Source: Enterococcus sp. AZ128
GTDB lineage: Bacteria > Bacillota > Bacilli > Lactobacillales > Enterococcaceae
Assembly: GCF_051714485.1 (NCBI RefSeq)
Contig: NZ_JBIORZ010000002.1
Coordinates: forward strand, 986,293-1,010,292
Direction: 5' to 3'
Length of the DNA stretch: 24,000 nucleotides
Part shown: in pieces, positions 15,824 through 24,000 of the stretch
Numbering within the stretch: the first letter of the stretch is position 1
Layout of the letters: every line of letters starts with the position of its first letter
Notes under the pieces: model-generated
Told to the model about the DNA's origin: nothing
Seen by the model: only the letters and a program-made list of their open reading frames with translations
Database searches by the model: none
Program-made: the position numbers and the translations under genes

Positions 15824-15846
15824 AGTAATAAAAAGGGGTGTTCCTA

Positions 15847-16605
15847 ATGAAATTTCACGTATTCGGTGATGAGCAAGCACCGATCATCCTGCTGCTCCAT
15901 GGCATTCAAACACCTTGGCAGATTTGGCAAACGCAGATTGAGTACTTTCAAAAGGATTATTTGGTCATTGCCCCAGCATTGAATGGACATGAGGAAGATG
16001 CGGAAAGTGAATTTGAGAGTTTGGAAAAAGAGGTCGAAGAAATTGAAGATTACTGCCTTATTAACGGACATAAAGCTATTTTTGCGGTGTGCGGACTTTC
16101 GATGGGCGGAGTGCTGGCGTATAAATTATGGCTCAATGCAAGAATGTCCATCCAGCATCTTGTGATGGATGGGGCGCCTTTAGTGGCCAATAATAAGCTG
16201 GTACAGACAGCCATGACGAGACAATACCTGTCAATTACCCATAAAGCGCAACAGCGCGAGAGAAAGACAATGGAGAATTTTTCTAAGTTTTTTCTACCTA
16301 TAGAATACCTCGACAGTTATTTAAAAATTGCGGATAATATGAGCGACCAAACAATTAGAAATCTTGTACGGTCATTAGGAGAAAACGAGCTGGCTAGCCC
16401 CCCAGATAGGAGCGGGGAAGAGATCCTGTATTTGTATGGAACAGGAACTAATGAGCTGTTTTCAAAAAAATCAGCGAAACAACTAAGCCAGATCTATCCT
16501 GAGGCTACGATCGTCAGGCTTGATGGGTATGGACATACTCAAAAGGCCATATATGAACCGGAAGAGTGGCTTCAATTAATAGAAAAACAGATAAGGAAAA
16601 AATAA
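15847..16605 (+). CDS. alpha/beta-fold hydrolase
   Basis: Nucleophile elbow VCGLSMGGVLA (GxSxG), an N-terminal HG oxyanion motif (ILLLHGIQ) and a C-terminal GYGHT. Start moved to ATG 15847, preceded by AAGGGG. Confidence 0.75.
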   Translation: MKFHVFGDEQAPIILLLHGIQTPWQIWQTQIEYFQKDYLVIAPALNGHEEDAESEFESLEKEVEEIEDYCLINGHKAIFAVCGLSMGGVLAYKLWLNARMSIQHLVMDGAPLVANNKLVQTAMTRQYLSITHKAQQRERKTMENFSKFFLPIEYLDSYLKIADNMSDQTIRNLVRSLGENELASPPDRSGEEILYLYGTGTNELFSKKSAKQLSQIYPEATIVRLDGYGHTQKAIYEPEEWLQLIEKQIRKK

Positions 16606-16625
16606 ATTTGGAAAGCCGTGAACAG

Positions 16626-17417
16626 ATGAGTCCATTTACTATTTATAATGAAGGAAAACATGTATACCCAGTAATTATCAGTCTTCCTCACAGCGGGACA
16701 TGGATTCCAGCGGAGATGCGTAAAAGCTTGCGAAAAGAGGCAGTTTTGGCGAATACGGACTGGTTTCTGCCAGAATTATATCGTTTTTTCGCGGCGAACG
16801 GCTGCACGGTGATCGAGAATCACGTCAATCGCTATGTTATTGATCCGAACCGTGAAAGCCAGATGGCTGGTGATGATTATCAGGATACAGTTGTTTACCA
16901 ACAAAACACCTTTGGCAACTCTCTGTATAGTGAACCGTTGGCTCCGAAAAGAATCAAAGAACGTTTAGACAGCTACTATTGGCCGTATCACCAGACTCTG
17001 CAAGAATTGATCAAAGAGAAAAGAAAGCTTTTCTCAAAGGTCTATCTATTTGATTTGCATAGCTTTGCGGAGTACCCGAATGATGATCAGACTGCTCCGG
17101 CAGATTTCGTGATTGGAAACCAAGAGGATCAAACAGCTGGTTTGGATTTACGATTAGGCTTAACGCGCGCTTTAGAAGCCGCGGGCTACAGTGTTTCGAA
17201 TAATCATCCGTTTTGCGGCGGGTTTATTACGCAGCATTATGGGCAGCAAGCTGGGGTCGAAGCGTTGCAATTAGAAATTCGCTACAATCAATACATTGAT
17301 CAGCGCTCGTTTGGTGAAGAGGAATTAACGGATTATGACCCAGAATTATTCCTTTCCGCGCAGACTAAGCTGAAGAATATTTTTGAAACCTGCTTGAATG
17401 AACAACTAAATCATTGA
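16626..17417 (+). CDS. N-formylglutamate amidohydrolase (FGase) family protein
   Basis: N-terminal ISLPHSGTWIP, then YVIDPNR and FDLHSF motifs typical of the FGase family as I recall it. Start moved to ATG 16626 (MSPFTIYNEG...). Confidence 0.7.
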   Translation: MSPFTIYNEGKHVYPVIISLPHSGTWIPAEMRKSLRKEAVLANTDWFLPELYRFFAANGCTVIENHVNRYVIDPNRESQMAGDDYQDTVVYQQNTFGNSLYSEPLAPKRIKERLDSYYWPYHQTLQELIKEKRKLFSKVYLFDLHSFAEYPNDDQTAPADFVIGNQEDQTAGLDLRLGLTRALEAAGYSVSNNHPFCGGFITQHYGQQAGVEALQLEIRYNQYIDQRSFGEEELTDYDPELFLSAQTKLKNIFETCLNEQLNH

Positions 17418-17430
17418 AATACAGAAAAAA

Positions 17431-17463
17431 AGCGTTCGATCCCATGGGATCGAGCGCTTTTAG
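17431..17463. terminator. bidirectional rho-independent terminator between convergent genes
   Basis: AGCGTTCGATCCC (17431-17443) / GGGATCGAGCGCT (17446-17458) with one G-U pair. An A-run lies upstream and a T-run downstream. Confidence 0.8.
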
Positions 17464-18002
17464 TAATCATTTGGATAATGAACGACAATAAACTTCACGA
17501 GATTGTTAGTCTGATTGTCCCAGTTATGATAGATCGTTGAAAAATAATGGGCTGAATCGCCAGGATACAGCTGATACGTCTTTTCATCAATCACCAATGT
17601 CAGAATGCCTTCTAACACATACACGAATTCTTCACCTTGATGAGGATAGCTGGCTGGCAGCTCCCGTTTTTCATGAGGCATGATCTCGATCATCTTCGGG
17701 GCGATTTTTTTATCCTGAGGGGATTGGCTTAACTGTTTGTAAATCATGTTGTTTAGTTTATGGATAACCGGCTGATCGTAGCCCCGTACAATCGGTTCGA
17801 TCTCGGGTTCTTCTTCAAAAAAGTAATTGATCTTGACGTTAAATAAATCTGCGATATTTGAAAGATGTTCGACTGCGATAGTCGTGATGCCTCGTTCAAA
17901 CTGCGACAAAAAGCCTGTCGATAGGCCCGTAGCTTCTGAAAGCTGTTTGAGAGTCATTCCTCGTTCATTACGCAGGTTCTTCACTTTTTCACCAATGTTC
18001 AT
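17460..18002 (-). CDS. XRE-family transcriptional regulator with C-terminal cupin domain
   Basis: HTH_3-type N-terminus (IGEKVKNLRNERGMTLKQLSEATGLSTGFLSQFERG) and a cupin_2-like C-terminus (HQGEEFVYVLEGILTLVIDEKTYQLYPGDSAHY). RBS GAGGT lies upstream of ATG 18002. Confidence 0.85.
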   Translation of the reverse strand: MNIGEKVKNLRNERGMTLKQLSEATGLSTGFLSQFERGITTIAVEHLSNIADLFNVKINYFFEEEPEIEPIVRGYDQPVIHKLNNMIYKQLSQSPQDKKIAPKMIEIMPHEKRELPASYPHQGEEFVYVLEGILTLVIDEKTYQLYPGDSAHYFSTIYHNWDNQTNNLVKFIVVHYPNDY

Positions 18003-18269
18003 TTGCTTACCTCAATTTCATATTAAAATATTTCTTTTTTCTTGGGTGAAAAAAGAGTAGGATTCTCATCACATCTATTATTTTACCAAACTAACGGATT
18101 ATTTGATTCAGTAAAATAAAAAAAGTTAAAATCATGTGAAAGAATGGATATTCTTACGATAAATGTCTGTTTTAAGTATACCTGAAAAACGTGCAAACGC
18201 CTAACCGTCATTTAAATGAAAAACTTCAGAAAAAATAAATTAAAAAATTCACGAATATGAATAAAGCGG

Positions 18270-18298
18270 TTGCAAGTAAGGCGCAGGAGTCTTATAAT
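18270..18298 (+). promoter_or_regulatory. sigma-A-type promoter of the glycyl-radical operon
   Basis: TTGCAA (18270-18275), a 17-nt spacer, then TATAAT (18293-18298). The RBS GGGAGGG starts about 8 nt after the -10, implying a very short leader. Confidence 0.6.
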
Positions 18299-18318
18299 TG
18301 AAGACGGGAGGGAAGCAC

Positions 18319-19098
18319 GTGAAAAAGCCTACGATTTTTAATATTCAGAAGTTTTCGACTCATGATGGGCCGGGGATTCGTACGACGATTTTTTTCAAAG
18401 GGTGTCCCATCAGATGTGAATGGTGTCACAATCCTGAAAGCCAAGTGTTTGCACCAGAGATCATGTTAAATAAATATGGTAAAGAAGAAATGATTGGTAA
18501 AGATTATTCGATTCGCGAGCTGGTAAAGAAGATTCAAGCGGATCAAATCTTTTATGACCAGTCCGGCGGAGGTGTTACATTTTCCGGTGGTGAAGTGATG
18601 GCGCAAAACATGGACTATGTGGTGGAGCTGGCAAAAGAATGTCAACGCTTAGGGATTACAGTTGCCATTGATACTTGCGGAGTAGCGCCAACTGAAAACT
18701 ATCGGCGAATCTTGCCATATGCAGATTTATTTTTGTATGATCTAAAGTTCATAGATTCACATAATCATCAACTTTATACTGGCGCAGGCAATCAATTGGT
18801 ACTTGAAAATTTACGTTTCTTATCGGAGCATCAGGCAGAGATCAATTTACGTTTGATCTTATTGGATGAAATCAATGCGGAAGAACTAGATGCTGAAGCG
18901 ATTATTGATTGGTTAATAGAAGAGAAAATTCATGTGAGTGAAATTTCATTGTTGCCATATCATGACTTTGGTCGCGACAAGTACGAACGTTTGAACCGTA
19001 TTTGTACTCAAAATTTTAAAAAACCATCAGATGAAAAAGTAGCAGCCCTGCAAAAAGTCTACCAAGATGCAGGATACCAAGCGACGATCGGCGGATAA
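18319..19098 (+). CDS. glycyl-radical enzyme activating protein (radical SAM), short form without ferredoxin-like insert
   Basis: FSTHDGPGIRTTIFFKGCPIRCEWCHNPES (CX3CX2C) and SGGGVTFSGGE. GTG start at 18319 is preceded by GGGAGGG (18306-18312). There are six Cys in total and no CX2CX2CX3C motif. Confidence 0.9.
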   Translation: MKKPTIFNIQKFSTHDGPGIRTTIFFKGCPIRCEWCHNPESQVFAPEIMLNKYGKEEMIGKDYSIRELVKKIQADQIFYDQSGGGVTFSGGEVMAQNMDYVVELAKECQRLGITVAIDTCGVAPTENYRRILPYADLFLYDLKFIDSHNHQLYTGAGNQLVLENLRFLSEHQAEINLRLILLDEINAEELDAEAIIDWLIEEKIHVSEISLLPYHDFGRDKYERLNRICTQNFKKPSDEKVAALQKVYQDAGYQATIGG

Positions 19099-19146
19099 GT
19101 TCCATTAAAAGAATAATTGCCTAAATATACTATAGGAGGAATAAAA

Positions 19147-21549
19147 ATGGCAGAATTAACACTAGAACCAACCAGAAGAGGGAGCACTGAGCGAATCAAA
19201 CGTTTGCGGGAGATCAGTGACAAGGAATGTACACCAAGTATTTCGATGGAACGCGCAGTCCTATTGACCGAAGCTTACAAAAAATGGGAAGGTAAAGTTT
19301 CTGCACCTGTGTTACGAGGAGAAGCCTTCAAGTACATCATGGAAAACCGGACGAACTATATTGAAAAAGGGTCGCTGGTTCTTGGTGAAAAAGGCGATAA
19401 ACCTTGGGCGGCTCCGACGTTCCCAGAATTGTGCTGCCATACGTTAGAGGATTTTGACAACATGCATAATCGCGAAAAAGTTTTCTTCCGAGTAAGTGAA
19501 GAAGATCGACGCGTTCAAGAAGAAGTGATCATTCCTTATTGGCATGATCGTGCGATGATGACGCGGATGAATCGCTTACTACCAGAAGAATGGCATTTAT
19601 TATTTGATGCGGGACTTTATACAGAATTCTTGATGCAGCGCGGACCGGGCCATACGGTAGCAGATGGAAAAATGTATCAAAAAGGATTTGCTGATTTTAA
19701 AGCAGATATTCAACAAGAGATCGACAACTTAGATTACAACAATGATATGGAAGCGTTAAATAAACGTGAAGAACTAGAAGGAATGAAGCTGGTCTGCGAA
19801 GGCATGATCATTTACGGAAAACGCTATGCAAAAGAATGTCGTGAGTTAGCGGAAAAGGAAACGGATCCTCAATGGAAGCAAGAGCTGTTAGAATTAGCTG
19901 AAGTTTGTGATGTCGTACCGGAACATGCGCCGCAAACCTTCCGTCAAGCGATCCAAATGTATTGGTTCACTCATATTGGTGTGACGGTGGAAATGAACAA
20001 CTGGGATGCGTATTCTCCAGGTAAATTAGATCAGCATTTAGAACCATTCTATGAAAAGGATATCGAAGAAGGGCGCTTGACTCGGGAAGAAGCGCGTGAA
20101 TTGTTGGAAAATCTGTGGATTCAATTCAATAATCAGCCTGCACCGCCAAAAGTTGGGATCACGTTGAAAGAAAGCGGTACGTATACCGACTTCTGTAACT
20201 TGAATACTGGTGCATTGCGTCCAGACGGCACAAGCGGTGTCAGCGACGTCAGCTATCTGATCTTAGAAGTCATGGATGAAATGAAGTTATTGCAGCCAAG
20301 CTCAAATGTGCAGATTTCTCGCAAATCACCAGAAAAATTCTTGCGCGAAGCCTTAAAAGTTTCTCGTAAAGGCTGGGGACAGCCAGCGATGTATAACTCA
20401 GAAGCGATCTTGGCGGAGTTAAGTTATCTTGGCAAGTCTGTTGATGATGCTCGTGAAAGCGGGATTTGTTCAGGCTGTGTAGAAGTCGGAGTTGCAGGAA
20501 AAGAAGCCTATGTGCTGACTGGATATCTGAATATTCCGAAGGTCTTCGAATTAGCGATGAACCGTGGGTATGATCATTACACGGATAAACAAGTTGGGAT
20601 CGATGTAGGCGACTTCACTAAGATGGAAACTTATGAAGAAATCTTTGAAGCCTTCCATAAAGAATTGCAATACGTGGTGGACGTGAAGGTCGCAGGGAAT
20701 AACATGATCGAACGGATGTATATGGAATTTATGCCAGTTCCATTACTCTCAGTGATGTCAGATGATTGTATATCTGTTGGTAAAGACTACAATGCTGGCG
20801 GGGCGCGTTACAACACAAGCTACATTCAGTGTGTGGGTATCGCAACGATTACCGATTCGTTAGCAGCGATGAAGCACAATGTTTTTGAAGAAAAAACAAT
20901 GACGATGCAGGAATTGTTAGCTGCATGTGAAGCCGATTTTGAAAATTATGAAGAAATCTATGACAGAGTGTATAACGAAACGCCTAAATATGGGAATGAT
21001 GATGAATACGCGGATACTTTATTACGTGATGTGGCGGAATCTCTGCAAGAGGTCATCGCAGGACGTCCAACGCCGAAAGGTTCGAAAACAGTTGTTGAAT
21101 TCTTACCGACAACTTGTCACGTATACTTCGGCCAAGTTATGGAGGCTTCACCAAATGGCCGCCATAAAGGCATTCCATTGCCAGACGGCATCTCACCAGA
21201 AAAAGGCGCCGATCGCAATGGTCCGACAGCTGTAATCAAATCTGCCTCAAAAATTGACCAAACGAAAACAGGCGGCGCTTTGTTGAATCAGAAGTTCACA
21301 CCTAGTGTGGTAGCCGGAGAAGCTGGAATCACCAACATGGCTTCGTTAGTCCGCAGCTACTTTGCCTTGGATGGACACCATATCCAATTCAATGTAATCG
21401 ATCGCCAAACATTATTAAAGGCACAGCAGCATCCGAAGGAATACGAAAACTTGATCGTACGAGTAGCGGGCTACAGTGATTACTTCAACAATTTAGAAAA
21501 GGCTCTGCAAGATGAGATTATCTCAAGAACAGAGCAGGCATTTGGATAA
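19147..21549 (+). CDS. glycyl radical enzyme, PFL2/glycerol-dehydratase-type (1,2-eliminase) clade; substrate unknown, possibly trans-4-hydroxy-L-proline dehydratase-like
   Basis: C-terminal glycyl-radical motif LIVRVAGYSDYF. The Cys loop SGCVEVG has Cys plus Glu at +2, as in glycerol dehydratase, CutC and HypD, rather than the CC of PFL. 800 aa from ATG 19147, preceded by AGGAGG (19134-19139). Confidence 0.9.
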   Translation: MAELTLEPTRRGSTERIKRLREISDKECTPSISMERAVLLTEAYKKWEGKVSAPVLRGEAFKYIMENRTNYIEKGSLVLGEKGDKPWAAPTFPELCCHTLEDFDNMHNREKVFFRVSEEDRRVQEEVIIPYWHDRAMMTRMNRLLPEEWHLLFDAGLYTEFLMQRGPGHTVADGKMYQKGFADFKADIQQEIDNLDYNNDMEALNKREELEGMKLVCEGMIIYGKRYAKECRELAEKETDPQWKQELLELAEVCDVVPEHAPQTFRQAIQMYWFTHIGVTVEMNNWDAYSPGKLDQHLEPFYEKDIEEGRLTREEARELLENLWIQFNNQPAPPKVGITLKESGTYTDFCNLNTGALRPDGTSGVSDVSYLILEVMDEMKLLQPSSNVQISRKSPEKFLREALKVSRKGWGQPAMYNSEAILAELSYLGKSVDDARESGICSGCVEVGVAGKEAYVLTGYLNIPKVFELAMNRGYDHYTDKQVGIDVGDFTKMETYEEIFEAFHKELQYVVDVKVAGNNMIERMYMEFMPVPLLSVMSDDCISVGKDYNAGGARYNTSYIQCVGIATITDSLAAMKHNVFEEKTMTMQELLAACEADFENYEEIYDRVYNETPKYGNDDEYADTLLRDVAESLQEVIAGRPTPKGSKTVVEFLPTTCHVYFGQVMEASPNGRHKGIPLPDGISPEKGADRNGPTAVIKSASKIDQTKTGGALLNQKFTPSVVAGEAGITNMASLVRSYFALDGHHIQFNVIDRQTLLKAQQHPKEYENLIVRVAGYSDYFNNLEKALQDEIISRTEQAFG

Positions 21550-21702
21550 ATAGTTATTTAGAGGTTGTGACAGAAGTGGTCAGCCTCAAGAAATTTCGGC
21601 TTATTTCCGCATACAAGTTCTGCTTTGTGTAACTTAGTAGTAACTGTATGTGTAGCCTGCGAAGAAGAAGTTACTTCTGGAGTACCGTTTGTTCGGAAAA
21701 GG

Positions 21703-21740
21703 GAGGTGTGACAAGACTTTTGTTACACCTCTTTTTTTTT
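21703..21740 (+). terminator. strong rho-independent terminator after the glycyl radical enzyme gene
   Basis: GAGGTGTGAC (21703-21712) / GTTACACCTC (21722-21731), 10 bp including one G-U, followed by T9 (21732-21740). Confidence 0.85.
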
Positions 21741-21792
21741 ACGCCTGGAAAATAGCTGGCACTGATTCCTAAGAGATTTTAAGAAAGCTATC

Positions 21793-21801
21793 TGATATAA
21801 T
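21793..21801 (+). promoter_or_regulatory. extended -10 promoter element upstream of the FadR-type GntR gene
   Basis: TGATATAAT at 21793-21801, 35 nt upstream of ATG 21837. Confidence 0.4.
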
Positions 21802-21836
21802 TAGTTGAATATTGTCGGAGGGGTGCTGATTCATGT

Positions 21837-22535
21837 ATGGATGTTAAACCTAGATATGAAAAACAGAGTTTGAGCGATAAGGTTGTATTAGATGTGAAAC
21901 GTCGAATTTTGGCAGGTACGCTAAAGAGTGGAGCTCGTCTAATTGAGACAGATATCTCAAATGAGTTTACGATCAGTCGAGCTCCTGTCAGAGAAGCAAT
22001 GCGTATCCTGAATCAACAAGGCTTGATTATTTTTTCTCCTCGGAAGGGCAATCATATAATTGAGATGGGCCCAGATGAATTGCTGGAGGTTTTTGAAATT
22101 CGAACGTCGTTGGAGAGACAAAGTTTGCATAAAATTTTGCGGAAACAGCTGCTCAAGGAAGAGGATTTTCAGCAATTGACCCAAATTGCGCTTGATATGA
22201 AGGATGATGAGCGGCACTGTCAAAGTGAAGAGGAAAAAGTCTTTTTATTTAATTCACTGGACCTTGCTTTTCATAAATATCTTTGGGAATTATCTGGGAA
22301 TGTGAGAAGAACGCGAATTTTAGAAGGCCTATATTATCAATTACTGATTGTGATGAATGAGGATCTTTCTTCACATGAAACGCTAGAAAAGAAATCGGAA
22401 GAACACCTAGCATTTGTGGATGTTTTGCGCGGAAATGACCTTTCGACGGTTGTTCGCGAGTTTCACGACCATATCTACGCGTACGTTAAGGCTACCTTGC
22501 CGACAGAAGAAAAGAATTTTTACTTGGATTGCTAA
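21837..22535 (+). CDS. GntR-family transcriptional regulator, FadR subfamily (wHTH plus FCD domain)
   Basis: GntR wHTH (LIETDISNEFTISRAPVREAMRILNQQGLI) and an all-helical C-terminal domain with His/Asp positions typical of FCD (DLAFHKYL, EEHLAFV, FHDHI). RBS GGAGGGG at 21818-21824. Confidence 0.85.
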   Translation: MDVKPRYEKQSLSDKVVLDVKRRILAGTLKSGARLIETDISNEFTISRAPVREAMRILNQQGLIIFSPRKGNHIIEMGPDELLEVFEIRTSLERQSLHKILRKQLLKEEDFQQLTQIALDMKDDERHCQSEEEKVFLFNSLDLAFHKYLWELSGNVRRTRILEGLYYQLLIVMNEDLSSHETLEKKSEEHLAFVDVLRGNDLSTVVREFHDHIYAYVKATLPTEEKNFYLDC

Positions 22536-22575
22536 AAGAGTTATCTTTACTTAATGAGTATGGCTGGAAATAAAA

Positions 22576-22609
22576 AATGAACCGTCCATTTTTTTTGGAC
22601 GGTTCATTT
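22576..22609. terminator. bidirectional rho-independent terminator between convergent genes
   Basis: AATGAACCGTCCA (22576-22588) / TGGACGGTTCATT (22597-22609), a T8 loop, an A-run on the left and a T-run on the right. Confidence 0.85.
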
Positions 22610-24000
22610 TATTTTTTCAAAGCAATTTGCTGTGCGTGGACGTTTTTCAGGAAGGCCTGGTCATGCTCAACGATCAGCATTGTTGGTTTGATCTGTAATA
22701 AAAGATCTTCCAATTGCTTTTGATTGAAGACATCAAGATAGTTCAAGGGTTCATCCCAAATGTAGAGCTCTGCTTCTTGCGCGAGCGATTTAGCCAGCTC
22801 GACTTTCTTACGCTGGCCCATACTCATTTCTTCAATGCGATTTGAAAAAACATTACGTTCCATACCGAGTTTCCGCAGATTATTCAAAAAGATAGAATAA
22901 TCCAATTGGTTTTTCTCTGCGAAGTCTTGCAGATTCCCTTGATTGCTTTCATAGTTTTGTCTAACATAACTGACTTTCACGTTTGGCCGCAGGAGTTCAC
23001 CGCTGGCCTCGCCCAGAAAAGTTCCTAATAAATAATGCAATATGCTAGATTTTCCGATCCCATTTGGCCCAGTCAATGCTGTGATTTCTCCTCGTTTCAA
23101 TTCAAAGGATAAAGGAGCGAAGAGGGGCTCTTGGTTCGCGTAGTGCAGAGTCAAATCTTCCACCTTCAAAAGCTGAGCATGACGGCTAGACTGATAGTTC
23201 ATTGTGAGGCGATCGACATCTTCCAAATCTTTTAAAAGTCCTTCTTTAACATCGATTTGATCGGACATGCGCTGTTCAATCATTTTAGAACGCTTCATTG
23301 TACGCGCGGCACGAGCGCCAATGAAGCCAGTATCGAAAATTCCGCCGCTGCCTTTTTCTGAGGGTTTGCCGTACTTTTCTTTTTCACGAGAACGGGACCA
23401 CTCAGCCTTTTCAGCGGCAGTTTTCTTCAATCGGCTGACTTCCTTCTTTATTTTTCTGTTTTGTGCTAATTCAAATTCATCCCGCAGTTCTTTTTGTTCT
23501 TCATAGGTCGCGAAATTACCTTGATAGAGTACCAGCTGGCTTTTTTCGATCGCTAAAGTATGATCGGTAACTTGATTTAAAAATTGGCGGTCGTGACTAA
23601 CAACGATAAAGCCATCCTTGTGCTGCAAATAGTCCGCGACATGTTGGCGGCCCTGCAGATCCAAGTGATTTGTCGGTTCATCGATCAGCGGGAAAAAATT
23701 TTCTTGCGTGAAGAGCAATGCTAACAGCACTTTTGTTTGTTCTCCGCCAGAAAGTGTCTGGTACGGCTGCCACAGCACTTGCGGGTCTAATTGAATCAAG
23801 TTCATTTCTCGTTCTAATTCCCATAACTCAAAATCGGCGACTTCCAGTAGTGCATAATAAGTCAGCTGGTCTGTTTCTTCCACAGTTGCTGGGAAATAAA
23901 CCGGCTGTAAAGGAAATTGAATCTCCCCTTGGTACGCATGTTTTCCTAACAGCAGCTGCAGCAATGTAGTTTTACCACGGCCATTGCGGCCGACTAACCC
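22609..24000 (-). CDS. lsa: ABC-F ATPase of the Lsa family (ribosomal-protection type), N-terminus outside the window
   Basis: Two ABC cassettes (GRNGRGKTT, LSGGEQTK, LIDEPTNHLD; GPNGIGKSS, MSMGQRKK, IWDEPLNYLD) joined by a charged linker (RKIKKEVSRLKKTAAEKAEWSRSREKEKYG), with no TM domain. Long stretches match my recollection of E. faecalis Lsa(A), for example NQLDY..FLNNLRKLGMER and ELYIWDEPLNYLDVFN. The frame stays open to position 24000. Confidence 0.85.
   Translation of the reverse strand, partial: GLVGRNGRGKTTLLQLLLGKHAYQGEIQFPLQPVYFPATVEETDQLTYYALLEVADFELWELEREMNLIQLDPQVLWQPYQTLSGGEQTKVLLALLFTQENFFPLIDEPTNHLDLQGRQHVADYLQHKDGFIVVSHDRQFLNQVTDHTLAIEKSQLVLYQGNFATYEEQKELRDEFELAQNRKIKKEVSRLKKTAAEKAEWSRSREKEKYGKPSEKGSGGIFDTGFIGARAARTMKRSKMIEQRMSDQIDVKEGLLKDLEDVDRLTMNYQSSRHAQLLKVEDLTLHYANQEPLFAPLSFELKRGEITALTGPNGIGKSSILHYLLGTFLGEASGELLRPNVKVSYVRQNYESNQGNLQDFAEKNQLDYSIFLNNLRKLGMERNVFSNRIEEMSMGQRKKVELAKSLAQEAELYIWDEPLNYLDVFNQKQLEDLLLQIKPTMLIVEHDQAFLKNVHAQQIALKK

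What the first reader, a model, noticed from the sequence alone, without database searches (positions are those of the whole stretch)
17460..22535. Orphan two-gene glycyl-radical module (eliminase-type GRE plus activase) bracketed by an XRE-cupin and a FadR-type regulator, with no pathway partners
Seen: the operon is promoter (18270-18298), activase, GRE, then a strong terminator (21703-21740). The GRE has RVAGYS and a GCVE Cys loop. Established knowledge: Cys with Glu at +2 marks the dehydratase/lyase clade (glycerol dehydratase C433/E435, CutC C489/E491, HypD C434/E436) rather than pyruvate formate-lyase. Several stretches (NNQPAPPKVG, ESGTYTDF, VEMNNWDAYSPGKLDQHL, the C-terminal DEIISRTEQAF) resemble what I remember of HypD. 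The positions of His, Asp, Cys and Gly sit about 9-10 residues beyond HypD numbering. I cannot verify this recollection, so the substrate call stays open. The window contains none of the usual context genes: no P5C reductase, microcompartment shell genes, transporter, aldehyde or alcohol dehydrogenase, or sulfite-handling genes. It does have two candidate local regulators, each with a small-molecule-binding domain (cupin, FCD). The substrate and physiological role in a facultative lactic acid bacterium are therefore undetermined.
Basis: partly seen in the sequence, partly recalled or inferred. Interest (0 to 1): 0.66.

Follow-up and report, generated by a model that had tools for sequence, protein, structure and literature searches.

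The report
Ordinary enterococcal hydroxyproline dehydratase operon
The "orphan" radical enzyme is the already characterised anaerobic hydroxyproline dehydratase HypD with its activase and a dedicated regulator, and the apparently missing pathway partners (proline-forming reductase, selenium-dependent proline reductase, a likely transporter) lie elsewhere in the same Enterococcus genome.

Summary

The open substrate call does not hold. The GRE is trans-4-hydroxy-L-proline dehydratase (HypD). It scores 1290 bits against NCBIfam NF043068 (cut-off 1100). It is 59% identical to the C. difficile HypD crystal structure. All 15 published active-site residues are conserved.

The genome belongs to the Enterococcus avium/raffinosus group. 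HypD is present in 20 of the 24 other species of that genus.

The module is not orphan at genome level. The genome also holds:
- two proC genes;
- a complete prd (D-proline reductase) operon with a selenocysteine PrdB;
- selA, selB and tRNA-Sec.

The XRE-cupin gene travels with activase-hypD across several bacterial orders. Two TCAYN4RTGA boxes, 41 bp apart, abut the promoter. The only other such pair in the 5 Mb genome precedes a TauE-family permease. That permease's orthologue sits directly behind hypD in three other enterococci.

The FCD regulator occurs in only 4 of 16 enterococcal loci, so it is not part of the module.

This scan has noted HypD modules many times before (145 notes, at least 137 genomes).

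The parts
17460..18002 (-). XRE-cupin transcription regulator (180 aa), divergent from the operon. It is the proposed hydroxyproline-responsive regulator of hypD.
   Evidence: It has HTH_3 and Cupin_2 domains. A homologue lies beside activase-hypD in Enterococcus, Vagococcus, Clostridium tyrobutyricum and C. luticellarii, Selenomonadales, Sporomusaceae, three Lactobacillaceae genera, Erysipelotrichales and Desulfovibrio. All 16 homologues at 54% identity or more that were retrieved independently are next to activase-hypD. The genome has no close paralogue; the next best is 29-33% identical.
18208..18219 (.). Operator-like box 1: the perfect palindrome TCATTTAAATGA (consensus TCAYN4RTGA).
   Evidence: The arms are conserved and the centre varies in 15 of 15 enterococcal loci. 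The box is also present in distant genera.
18249..18260 (.). Operator-like box 2: TCACGAATATGA. It lies 41 bp from box 1 and ends 9 nt before the -35 hexamer.
   Evidence: A pair at 40-41 bp is conserved in 14 of 15 enterococcal loci. It is also seen in Vagococcus, C. luticellarii, Selenomonadales, Sporomusaceae and Loigolactobacillus. Only two pairs with this spacing exist in the 5.06 Mb genome.
18270..18298 (+). Sigma-70-type promoter of the activase-hypD operon: TTGCAA, 17 nt, TATAAT.
   Evidence: It matches 10 of 12 consensus positions. Both hexamers are conserved across enterococcal loci.
18319..19098 (+). HypD activating enzyme, short form (259 aa). It has a radical-SAM CX3CX2C motif only and no ferredoxin-like auxiliary-cluster insert.
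   Evidence: It passes the general GRE-activase model TIGR02494 (265.8 against a cut-off of 174). It scores 321.9 against the HypD-activase model NF043069 (cut-off 425), with about 41 profile positions missing. It has no CX2CX2CX3C motif. The same short form accompanies all 70 activases found beside HypDs of 67% identity or more.
19147..21549 (+). trans-4-hydroxy-L-proline dehydratase HypD (800 aa). The radical glycine is Gly775 and the Cys loop is C444-V445-E446.
   Evidence: It scores 1290.2 against NF043068 (cut-off 1100). It scores 1112.6 bits against PDB 6VXC, with 513 for the next structure. It is 59% identical over 788 aligned residues and all 15 active-site residues are conserved. The start codon was fixed.
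21550..21702 (+). 3' untranslated stretch of about 150 nt. It is specific to this genome and probably has no conserved function.
   Evidence: Related enterococci place a terminator 20-40 nt after the stop codon, and this stretch does not align with them. It has no Rfam match.
21703..21740 (+). Intrinsic terminator of the operon.
   Evidence: It forms a 17-bp stem (including flanking A-U pairs) at -21.2 kcal/mol, z = -5.6, followed by T9.
21837..22535 (+). FCD/GntR (FadR-type) regulator. It is a monocistronic neighbour and not part of the hypD module.
   Evidence: It has GntR and FCD domains. It has its own extended -10 element, TGATATAAT, and a bidirectional terminator at 22574-22610. It is present in only 4 of 16 enterococcal hypD loci. 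In E. devriesei, E. xiangfangensis and E. pseudoavium the ABC-F gene follows hypD directly.

Best explanation
This is a regulated hypD operon in an Enterococcus of the avium/raffinosus group.

Shown by sequence:
- The activase is a single-cluster radical-SAM enzyme.
- The GRE has every sequence determinant of trans-4-hydroxy-L-proline dehydratase. By analogy with C. difficile HypD, the activase installs the Gly775 radical. Cys444 then abstracts H from C5 of hydroxyproline (Hyp), water leaves from C4, and the product is (S)-delta1-pyrroline-5-carboxylate (P5C).

Inferred from comparative genomics:
- The divergent XRE-cupin protein binds two TCAYN4RTGA boxes spaced four helical turns apart, just upstream of a near-consensus promoter.
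- It probably acts as a repressor that is released when Hyp, or a closely related molecule, binds its cupin domain.
- The same box pair and promoter layout precede a TauE/SafE-family permease at genome position C2:503585-504466. This permease is proposed as the Hyp importer of the same regulon.

Inferred from genome content:
- P5C is reduced to L-proline by the chromosomal ProC.
- Proline is racemised by PrdF and reduced by the selenoenzyme PrdAB to 5-aminovalerate.
- Collagen-derived Hyp would therefore serve this facultative fermenter as an electron acceptor, and also as a proline source, as in clostridial Stickland metabolism.

The FCD regulator downstream is an unrelated, variably present neighbour.
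For: HypD identity:
- NF043068 equivalog, 1290.2 against a cut-off of 1100. The next families score 628 or less.
- PDB 6VXC/6VXE HypD scores 1112.6 bits, against 513 for glycerol dehydratase and 472 for HpyG (8ID1).
- F152, R156, H160, W277, D278, K326, S334, D339, F340, C434, V435, E436, Y450, T645 and G765 of C. difficile HypD are all conserved (residue roles from PMC7077986).
- Only one of the genome's 11 GRE genes passes the HypD cut-off.
- dN/dS is 0.01-0.03.

Regulator:
- Its linkage to activase-hypD is conserved across orders.
- More distant homologues (42-52% identity) sit beside Xaa-Pro (M24) peptidases, peptide-uptake genes or oxoprolinase.

Operator:
- The boxes are conserved with variable centres at a fixed 40-41 bp spacing.
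- The genome holds 487 single sites but only 2 pairs at 41 bp.
- The second pair lies 7 nt before a TTGATA-17-TATAAT promoter that points at the TauE permease.
- The same pair, plus a third box, is conserved before the permease orthologues of E. malodoratus and E. avium.
- That permease's orthologue (83-87% identity) lies immediately downstream of hypD in E. pallens, E. florum and Ca. E. moelleringii.

Downstream pathway:
- proC: 282.9 and 208.6 bits, both over the cut-off.
- PrdC, PrdA, PrdB (in-frame TGA at the Sec position) and PrdD pass their cut-offs. PrdE is recognisable, and the proline racemase PrdF scores just under its cut-off (532.9 against 556). A proline iminopeptidase, a PepQ-like peptidase and a 453-aa membrane protein that looks like a POT-type peptide transporter (not family-tested) lie upstream.
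- tRNA-Sec, SelB and SelA are present nearby.
- 22 of the 23 HypD-positive genomes in the family also have PrdA.
Against: - No biochemical, transcript or growth evidence was available.
- The sign of regulation and the ligand of the cupin domain are inferred only.
- The box pair lies about 580 nt upstream of the permease start codon. An AT-rich hairpin followed by a T-run, read by eye about 60 nt after the promoter, lies in between. Read-through into the permease gene is therefore not shown.
- About 0.1 chance pairs at this spacing are expected genome-wide, so the second pair alone would be weak. Its weight comes from conservation in two other species and from the operon linkage in three more.
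- HypD and Prd co-occur mostly within one genus, so the co-occurrence counts are not independent.
- Huang et al. 2018 suggest that in genomes without an adjacent proC, P5C may take other routes.
- The activase fails the curated HypD-activase cut-off because the auxiliary-cluster domain is absent.
Confidence: 0.8

Rival explanations
1. HypD works here only as a salvage enzyme. Hyp is converted through P5C to proline (or to glutamate or ornithine) for biosynthesis, osmoprotection or nitrogen supply. It is not functionally coupled to proline reductase.
For: There is no proC or prd gene in the operon or the window. Huang et al. 2018 argue that most HypD genomes lacking an adjacent proC may not reduce Hyp to proline. 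One HypD-positive genome in the family (G092) lacks PrdA. proBA is present, so ProC also has a biosynthetic role.
Against: 22 of 23 HypD-positive genomes in the family carry PrdA. The prd operon is complete, with its selenocysteine machinery. Paralogues of the hypD-linked permease sit at the end of the prd operon and near proC.
Confidence: 0.17
2. The GRE acts on a different substrate, such as another hydroxyproline isomer, an N-methylated hydroxyproline or an unrelated alcohol. In that case the first reader's 'substrate open' call stands.
For: No assay has been done on this protein. Related GREs act on N-methyl-cis-4-hydroxyproline (HpyG, HpzG) or trans-4-hydroxy-D-proline (HplG). The activase is an atypical short form.
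Against: All Hyp-contacting residues are identical to C. difficile HypD. Scores against HpyG, HpzG and HplG structures are 472, 424 and 381 bits, against 1113 for HypD. The genome carries a separate HpyG orthologue (1485 bits to 8ID1) and a second HpyG-like paralogue for the methylated substrates.
Confidence: 0.03
3. Both flanking regulators control the operon. The FCD/GntR protein is a second, effector-binding regulator of hypD.
For: It lies directly downstream and carries a small-molecule-binding FCD domain. It is also present at the same position in E. raffinosus DSM 5633, Ca. E. murrayae and E. hulanensis.
Against: It is absent from 12 of 16 enterococcal hypD loci and from all loci outside the genus. 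It has its own promoter and terminator. No FadR-type operator was recognised by eye in the hypD control region; no pattern search was run.
Confidence: 0.07

Closest known systems
Clostridioides difficile HypD / HypD-AE / P5C reductase cluster (Levin et al. 2017; Huang et al. 2018, PMC6219649; Backman et al. 2020, PMC7077986; PDB 6VXC, 6VXE)
   Same: The enzyme family is the same. It is 59% identical, with identical Gly loop, CXE Cys loop and all substrate-binding and acid-base residues. The activase is adjacent. The genome also has a prd operon, so the same Hyp to proline to 5-aminovalerate route is possible.
   Different: There is no adjacent proC. The activase lacks the ferredoxin-like domain with two CX2CX2CX3C motifs. 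The host is a facultative enterococcus and not a clostridium. The transporter, ProC and Prd are dispersed over the chromosome.
[quoted passage not shown]
   Same: They are GRE eliminases acting on hydroxyproline derivatives, with a CXE Cys loop. An HpyG orthologue with its own proC-like reductase and an XRE-type (HTH) regulator exists in the same genome.
   Different: The window's enzyme scores only 472, 424 and 381 bits against them, compared with 1113 against HypD. It keeps the HypD-specific residues.
PFL-AE (PflA) and NrdG, the only GRE activases generally described as lacking the auxiliary ferredoxin-like domain (review PMC13450708)
   Same: Single-domain architecture with only the CX3CX2C cluster site.
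   Different: By sequence the window's activase belongs with the HypD and eliminase activases. Its best hit is NF043069, and it scores 161 bits on the PflA model. It has a short Cys-free linker of roughly 15-20 residues where the ferredoxin-like domain would sit.
PuuR-type XRE-cupin regulators (E. coli putrescine repressor PuuR)
   Same: N-terminal HTH_3 plus C-terminal cupin effector domain. The protein is encoded beside the catabolic genes it is thought to control.
   Different: It scores only 56.5 bits on the PuuR model (cut-off 211). It has a different operator (TCAYN4RTGA pairs) and a different predicted effector (Hyp or a related imino acid). No member of this hypD-linked group is described in the literature searched.

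Membership tests
HypD, trans-4-hydroxy-L-proline dehydratase (NCBIfam NF043068 equivalog) | Whole-protein score above the curated equivalog cut-off | tested here: met
   1290.2 bits against a cut-off of 1100. The next best families are PFL2-3 at 628 and HpsG at 576.
HypD, trans-4-hydroxy-L-proline dehydratase (NCBIfam NF043068 equivalog) | C-terminal glycyl radical motif RVxG[FWY] and a Cys loop with the CXE motif | tested here: met
   RVAGYS with Gly775, and GCVE with C444 and E446 in 800-aa numbering. Pfam Gly_radical scores 128.5 bits.
HypD, trans-4-hydroxy-L-proline dehydratase (NCBIfam NF043068 equivalog) | HypD-specific catalytic and substrate-binding residues: His160, Asp278, Asp339, Ser334, Phe340, Tyr450 and Thr645, plus Phe152, Arg156, Trp277 and Lys326 | tested here: met
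   All are identical in the HMMER alignment to 6VXC. Residue roles are taken from PMC7077986.
HypD, trans-4-hydroxy-L-proline dehydratase (NCBIfam NF043068 equivalog) | The nearest solved structure is HypD and not another eliminase | tested here: met
   6VXC scores 1112.6 bits. Others: glycerol dehydratase 513, HpyG 472, CutC 461.
HypD, trans-4-hydroxy-L-proline dehydratase (NCBIfam NF043068 equivalog) | Dehydration of trans-4-hydroxy-L-proline to P5C after activation | not testable with these tools
   This needs anaerobic reconstitution, EPR and a coupled assay or LC-MS.
HypD activase (NCBIfam NF043069 equivalog) | Whole-protein score above the curated cut-off | tested here: not met
   321.9 bits against a cut-off of 425. 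The match is in two stretches and about 41 profile positions are missing. I therefore do not file it under this equivalog. It does pass the general GRE-activase model TIGR02494 (265.8 against 174.35).
HypD activase (NCBIfam NF043069 equivalog) | Ferredoxin-like insert with two CX2CX2CX3C motifs after the CX3CX2C motif | tested here: not met
   It has no such motif and only six Cys in total. The long form, with both motifs, does occur beside the 58%-identical HypDs of C. oceanicum and Natronincola.
Clostridial hypD-activase-proC Stickland cluster | P5C reductase gene adjacent to hypD | tested here: not met
   There is no proC in the 24-kb window. proC genes lie at C3:363975-364787 and C2:701531-702346.
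Clostridial hypD-activase-proC Stickland cluster | D-proline reductase (prd) operon in the same genome | tested here: met
   PrdC 512 (cut-off 490), PrdA 967 (700), PrdB 403 (300, with in-frame TGA) and PrdD 353 (320). PrdE and a proline racemase (533 against a cut-off of 556) are also present, all within C2:750025-756811. tRNA-Sec, SelA and SelB are present.
XRE-cupin (PuuR-like) effector-binding regulators | HTH_3 DNA-binding domain plus C-terminal Cupin_2 domain | tested here: met
   HTH_3 scores 48.2 bits and Cupin_2 scores 50.9 bits. It is not a PuuR equivalog (56.5 against 211).
FCD regulator as a component of the hypD module | Conserved co-occurrence with activase-hypD across species | tested here: not met
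   Present in 4 of 16 enterococcal loci and in none of about 60 loci in other genera.

The most novel reading that the evidence does not exclude
Enterococci of the avium group, usually regarded as lactic-acid fermenters, may run a clostridial-type reductive Stickland branch on collagen-derived hydroxyproline. The branch would be built from a dispersed regulon. A Hyp-sensing XRE-cupin repressor with a defined two-box operator (TCAYN4RTGA, 41 bp apart) would control both hypD and a TauE/SafE-family permease. That permease would be the first identified hydroxyproline importer of anaerobes. A naturally minimal, single-cluster activase would suffice to activate an eliminase-type GRE.
Probability: 0.4. 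Interest if true: 0.5.

Novelty: new member of a known kind. Interest (0 to 1): 0.3.

Why it matters
As an enzyme discovery it does not matter much. HypD is characterised, was already reported in Enterococcus (PMC6219649), and this copy would be named correctly by NCBI's own annotation model.

Three modest points go beyond the papers I could search.
- A dedicated XRE-cupin regulator with a recognisable operator accompanies hypD across several bacterial orders. No hypD regulator is named in the papers I could search.
- A TauE-family permease is tied to hypD by two independent lines, operon linkage and a shared operator. This gives a testable candidate for the unknown Hyp transporter.
- The E. 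avium group combines HypD, two HpyG-type enzymes and a selenocysteine proline reductase. These opportunistic gut enterococci could therefore compete with C. difficile for hydroxyproline and proline.

The widespread short activase is also a natural test case for what the auxiliary clusters of GRE activases are for.

Tried and rejected
- Structured RNA in the leader or the 150-nt 3' stretch: no Rfam match at E up to 1. The 3' stretch is not conserved in any related enterococcus, so it was rejected as a conserved element.
- FCD regulator as part of the module: rejected on conservation.
- Alpha/beta hydrolase and N-formylglutamate amidohydrolase-like genes (15838-17417) as partners: an FGase-like gene recurs upstream in 9 of 16 enterococcal loci (62-77% identity) and in none outside the genus. 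The hydrolase was not found in any related locus. Both are treated as neighbours.
It is not linked to hypD in other genera.
- Horizontal-transfer signal: there is no GC anomaly. The module is 0.40-0.44 GC, like its flanks.
- Single TCAYN4RTGA boxes near prdC (72 nt upstream) and pepQ: single sites occur about once per 10 kb, so they were not counted as regulon evidence.
- The box pattern is enriched in the window (8 against 2.2 expected). Six of the eight sites are in coding sequence and were ignored.
- TTG 19117 as the GRE start: rejected in favour of ATG 19147.
- Literature search for a named hypD regulator, or for proline reductase in E. avium or E. raffinosus: nothing found in the held library.


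Full report
**Observation**

The ORF map shows, in order:
- a 180-aa gene on the minus strand (17460-18002);
- a 316-bp AT-rich spacer;
- a radical-SAM activase;
- an approximately 800-aa glycyl radical enzyme (GRE);
- a 232-aa regulator on the plus strand (21837-22535);
- a convergent Lsa-family ABC-F gene.

Pfam gives HTH_3 plus Cupin_2, Fer4_12 plus Radical_SAM, PFL-like plus Gly_radical, and GntR plus FCD for the four proteins.

The promoter TTGCAA-17-TATAAT at 18270-18298 is the best sigma-70 match in the region. The hairpin at 21703-21740 folds at -21.2 kcal/mol (z = -5.6) and is followed by T9.

The true start codons are GTG 18319 for the activase, behind GGGAGGG, and ATG 19147 for the GRE, behind GGAGG. 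Relatives have stop codons upstream of the equivalent ATG.

**What the enzyme is**

The GRE passes NCBI's curated equivalog model for trans-4-hydroxy-L-proline dehydratase (NF043068) at 1290.2 bits against a cut-off of 1100. No other family exceeds 628 bits.

Against all PDB sequences the best hit is C. difficile HypD (6VXC/6VXE) at 1112.6 bits. Glycerol dehydratase follows at 513, HpyG at 472 and CutC at 461.

Parsing that alignment gives 59% identity over 788 residues. Every residue that Backman et al. 2020 (PMC7077986) showed to contact Hyp or to be essential is identical: F152, R156, H160, W277, D278, K326, S334, D339, F340, C434, V435, E436, Y450, T645 and G765.

Of the 11 GRE genes in this 5.06 Mb genome, only this one passes the HypD cut-off.

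The substrate call is no longer open, short of a biochemical assay.

**Organism and distribution**

The closest loci are E. raffinosus, E. hulanensis, Ca. E. murrayae, E. avium and E. malodoratus, at 96-98% amino-acid identity.

In a scan of 134 genomes of the family (133 besides this one), HypD is over the cut-off in 20 of the 24 other genomes of the same genus. It is over the cut-off in only 2 of 109 genomes elsewhere in the family.

Huang et al. 2018 (PMC6219649) already list Enterococcus among HypD-bearing genera. [quoted passage not shown] Absence of proC from the locus is therefore the rule and not an oddity.

Between species the three module genes show dN/dS of 0.01-0.03 where synonymous sites are not saturated. 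The module is maintained by selection.

**Not orphan at genome level**

proC is present twice (C3:363975-364787 and C2:701531-702346), and proBA is present as well.

A Pfam Gly_reductase search led to C2:746122-757711. Its products pass, or nearly pass, the curated models as follows:

| Product | Score | Cut-off |
|---|---|---|
| Proline iminopeptidase | 512.9 | 400 |
| PrdC | 512 | 490 |
| PrdA | 967 | 700 |
| PrdB (in-frame TGA exactly at the TAG-U-GTC position) | 403 | 300 |
| PrdD | 353 | 320 |
| PrdE | matches the C-terminal part of the PrdA model (160 bits) | |
| Proline racemase | 533 | 556 |

The region also holds a PepQ-like M24 peptidase, a 453-aa membrane protein that looks like a POT-type peptide transporter (named from its sequence, not family-tested) and a terminal membrane protein.

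tRNA-Sec (C2:779834), SelB and SelA lie within 30 kb.

PrdA is over its cut-off in 23 of the 24 other genus members. 22 of the 23 HypD-positive genomes in the family, this one included, also have PrdA. These genomes are close kin, so the counts are not independent.

The enzymes for Hyp to P5C to L-proline to D-proline to 5-aminovalerate are thus all encoded, though dispersed. Whether flux actually goes this way is inference.

**The regulator**

The XRE-cupin gene lies beside activase-hypD, usually divergent from it, in all enterococcal loci. The same holds in Vagococcus, C. tyrobutyricum, C. luticellarii, Selenomonadales, Sporomusaceae, Lapidilactobacillus, Loigolactobacillus, Lactiplantibacillus, Erysipelotrichales and a Desulfovibrio.

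Searching from the regulator outward, all 16 homologues at 54% identity or more are next to activase-hypD. Two at 49-53% (C. oceanicum, Natronincola) are next to HypDs of the other clade, which carries the long activase. Those at 42-52% are next to M24 Xaa-Pro peptidases, an EutH permease, a peptide-binding protein or oxoprolinase.

The family therefore appears dedicated to imino-acid and proline-peptide metabolism. The genome has no close paralogue. I found no named hypD regulator in the literature held. Reed et al. 2022 report Hyp-induced hypD expression in C. difficile strains.

**The operator**

Aligning the control regions of 16 enterococcal loci shows two conserved boxes, TCAYN4RTGA. They lie at 18208-18219 (the perfect palindrome TCATTTAAATGA) and 18249-18260. 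The arms are conserved and the centres vary. Box 2 ends 9 nt before the -35 hexamer.

A pair at 40-41 bp recurs in 14 of 15 enterococcal relatives. It also recurs in Vagococcus, C. luticellarii, Selenomonadales, Sporomusaceae and Loigolactobacillus. In C. tyrobutyricum the spacing is 30 bp. Single boxes occur in the long-activase loci.

Genome-wide there are 487 single sites but only two pairs at 41 bp: the hypD promoter and C2:505045/505086. The second pair sits 7 nt before a TTGATA-17-TATAAT promoter on the minus strand. That promoter points at a 294-aa TauE/SafE-family permease, C2:503585-504466.

Both promoters are near consensus. This favours repression over activation, but the sign is not established.

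**The permease link**

Two observations independent of the motif search support the link.
- The orthologue of this permease (83-87% identity) begins right after the hypD stop codon in E. pallens, E. florum and Ca. E. moelleringii.
- In E. malodoratus and E. avium the permease is unlinked, as here. Their orthologues (97-98% identity) carry the same 41-bp box pair plus a third box upstream, again with diverged centres.

Paralogues lie at the end of the prd operon and 2.5 kb from proC.

I therefore propose it as the Hyp importer of the same regulon. One caveat is the roughly 530-nt leader, which contains an AT-rich hairpin (read by eye).

**The activase**

It has only the CX3CX2C site and lacks about 41 positions of the HypD-activase profile (NF043069, 321.9 against a cut-off of 425). 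It passes the general GRE-activase model.

A 2026 review states that the vast majority of GRE activases carry the ferredoxin-like domain and names only PFL-AE and the RNR activase as exceptions (PMC13450708).

The short form is nevertheless not peculiar to this genome. All 70 activases found beside HypDs of 67% identity or more are short. These span Bacillota, Bifidobacterium, Propionibacteriaceae and others. The 58%-identical clade has the long form. This was the subject of a separate first-reader note.

**What does not belong**

- The FCD regulator is present in 4 of 16 enterococcal loci. Elsewhere the ABC-F gene or other genes follow hypD. It has its own extended -10 element and terminator.
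- The 150-nt 3' stretch is unique to this genome and matches no Rfam family.
- GC content gives no sign of recent transfer.

**Verdict**

This is a correctly observed but ordinary HypD operon. The scan had already logged 145 HypD notes in at least 137 genomes. First readers had also noted XRE-cupin genes and a TTCATATATATGAA palindrome beside hypD elsewhere.

The added value is comparative:
- a defined candidate operator;
- a candidate Hyp permease;
- the genome-level link to a selenocysteine proline reductase in the E. avium group.

None of this was tested experimentally.

Noticed in passing
G000:C2:693890-702346 (minus strand; loci L006 and L002): A second hydroxyproline-type GRE cluster: proC-like reductase (271 aa), XRE-type regulator (196 aa), GRE (796 aa), short activase (275 aa), a 436-aa membrane protein and a 563-aa protein that look like transporters by eye. 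[quoted passage not shown] It is therefore an HpyG orthologue, and this proC copy probably serves it and not HypD.
   Followed up: partly
G000:C2:350533-352878 (locus L005): A third related GRE (797 aa, CGCVETN Cys loop). It scores 1191 bits against HpyG (8ID1) and 903 against HpzG (8IOF), and is below every NCBIfam equivalog cut-off. It is an HpyG-like paralogue of unknown substrate.
   Followed up: partly
G000 whole genome: The genome carries 11 GRE genes: HypD, six other PFL2-type enzymes and four PFL-type enzymes. The four include two nearly identical 763-aa PFL copies at C1:1380316 and C1:1462050 that differ at only two residues. This is an unusually large GRE complement for an enterococcus.
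   Followed up: no
G000:C2:630128-635750: A second prd-like cluster. Its PrdA homologue (588 aa) scores 867 bits, over the cut-off. Its PrdB homologue has Cys (TGGCGTCHR) where the main PrdB has selenocysteine (TAGUGTCHR). It may be a selenium-independent reductase, or one for a different imino acid.
   Followed up: partly
window 18319-19098 and loci L012-L089: The short, single-cluster activase accompanies every HypD of 67% identity or more that was examined (70 of 70). The taxa include Bifidobacterium, Megasphaera and Propionibacteriaceae. It falls below NCBI's HypD-activase cut-off, so it is likely to be annotated only generically.
   Followed up: yes
G000:C2:504470-505000 (locus L149 2470-3000, minus strand): The box-controlled promoter before the TauE permease is followed, after about 60 nt, by an AT-rich hairpin with a T-run and then about 470 nt of non-coding sequence before the gene. 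This could be a leader or attenuator, or a separate small transcript. It has no Rfam match.
   Followed up: partly
window 21550-21702: The 150-nt stretch between the hypD stop codon and the terminator is absent from all related enterococci, which terminate within 20-40 nt. It looks like a lineage-specific insertion and not a conserved regulatory RNA.
   Followed up: yes
window 18003-18145: The divergent control region is about 140 bp longer here (316 bp) than in most relatives (about 175 bp). The extra AT-rich DNA lies next to the XRE-cupin start codon.
   Followed up: no
window 22609-24000: An Lsa-family ABC-F ribosomal-protection gene, cut by the window end. It scores 664 bits on the Lsa model (cut-off 750) and passes the general ABC-F protection model. 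It is conserved next to the hypD locus in several avium-group species.
   Followed up: no
window, whole: The pattern TCAYN4RTGA occurs 8 times in the window against 2.2 expected (0 of 100 shuffles reach 8). Six of the sites are inside coding sequences and remain unexplained.
   Followed up: no
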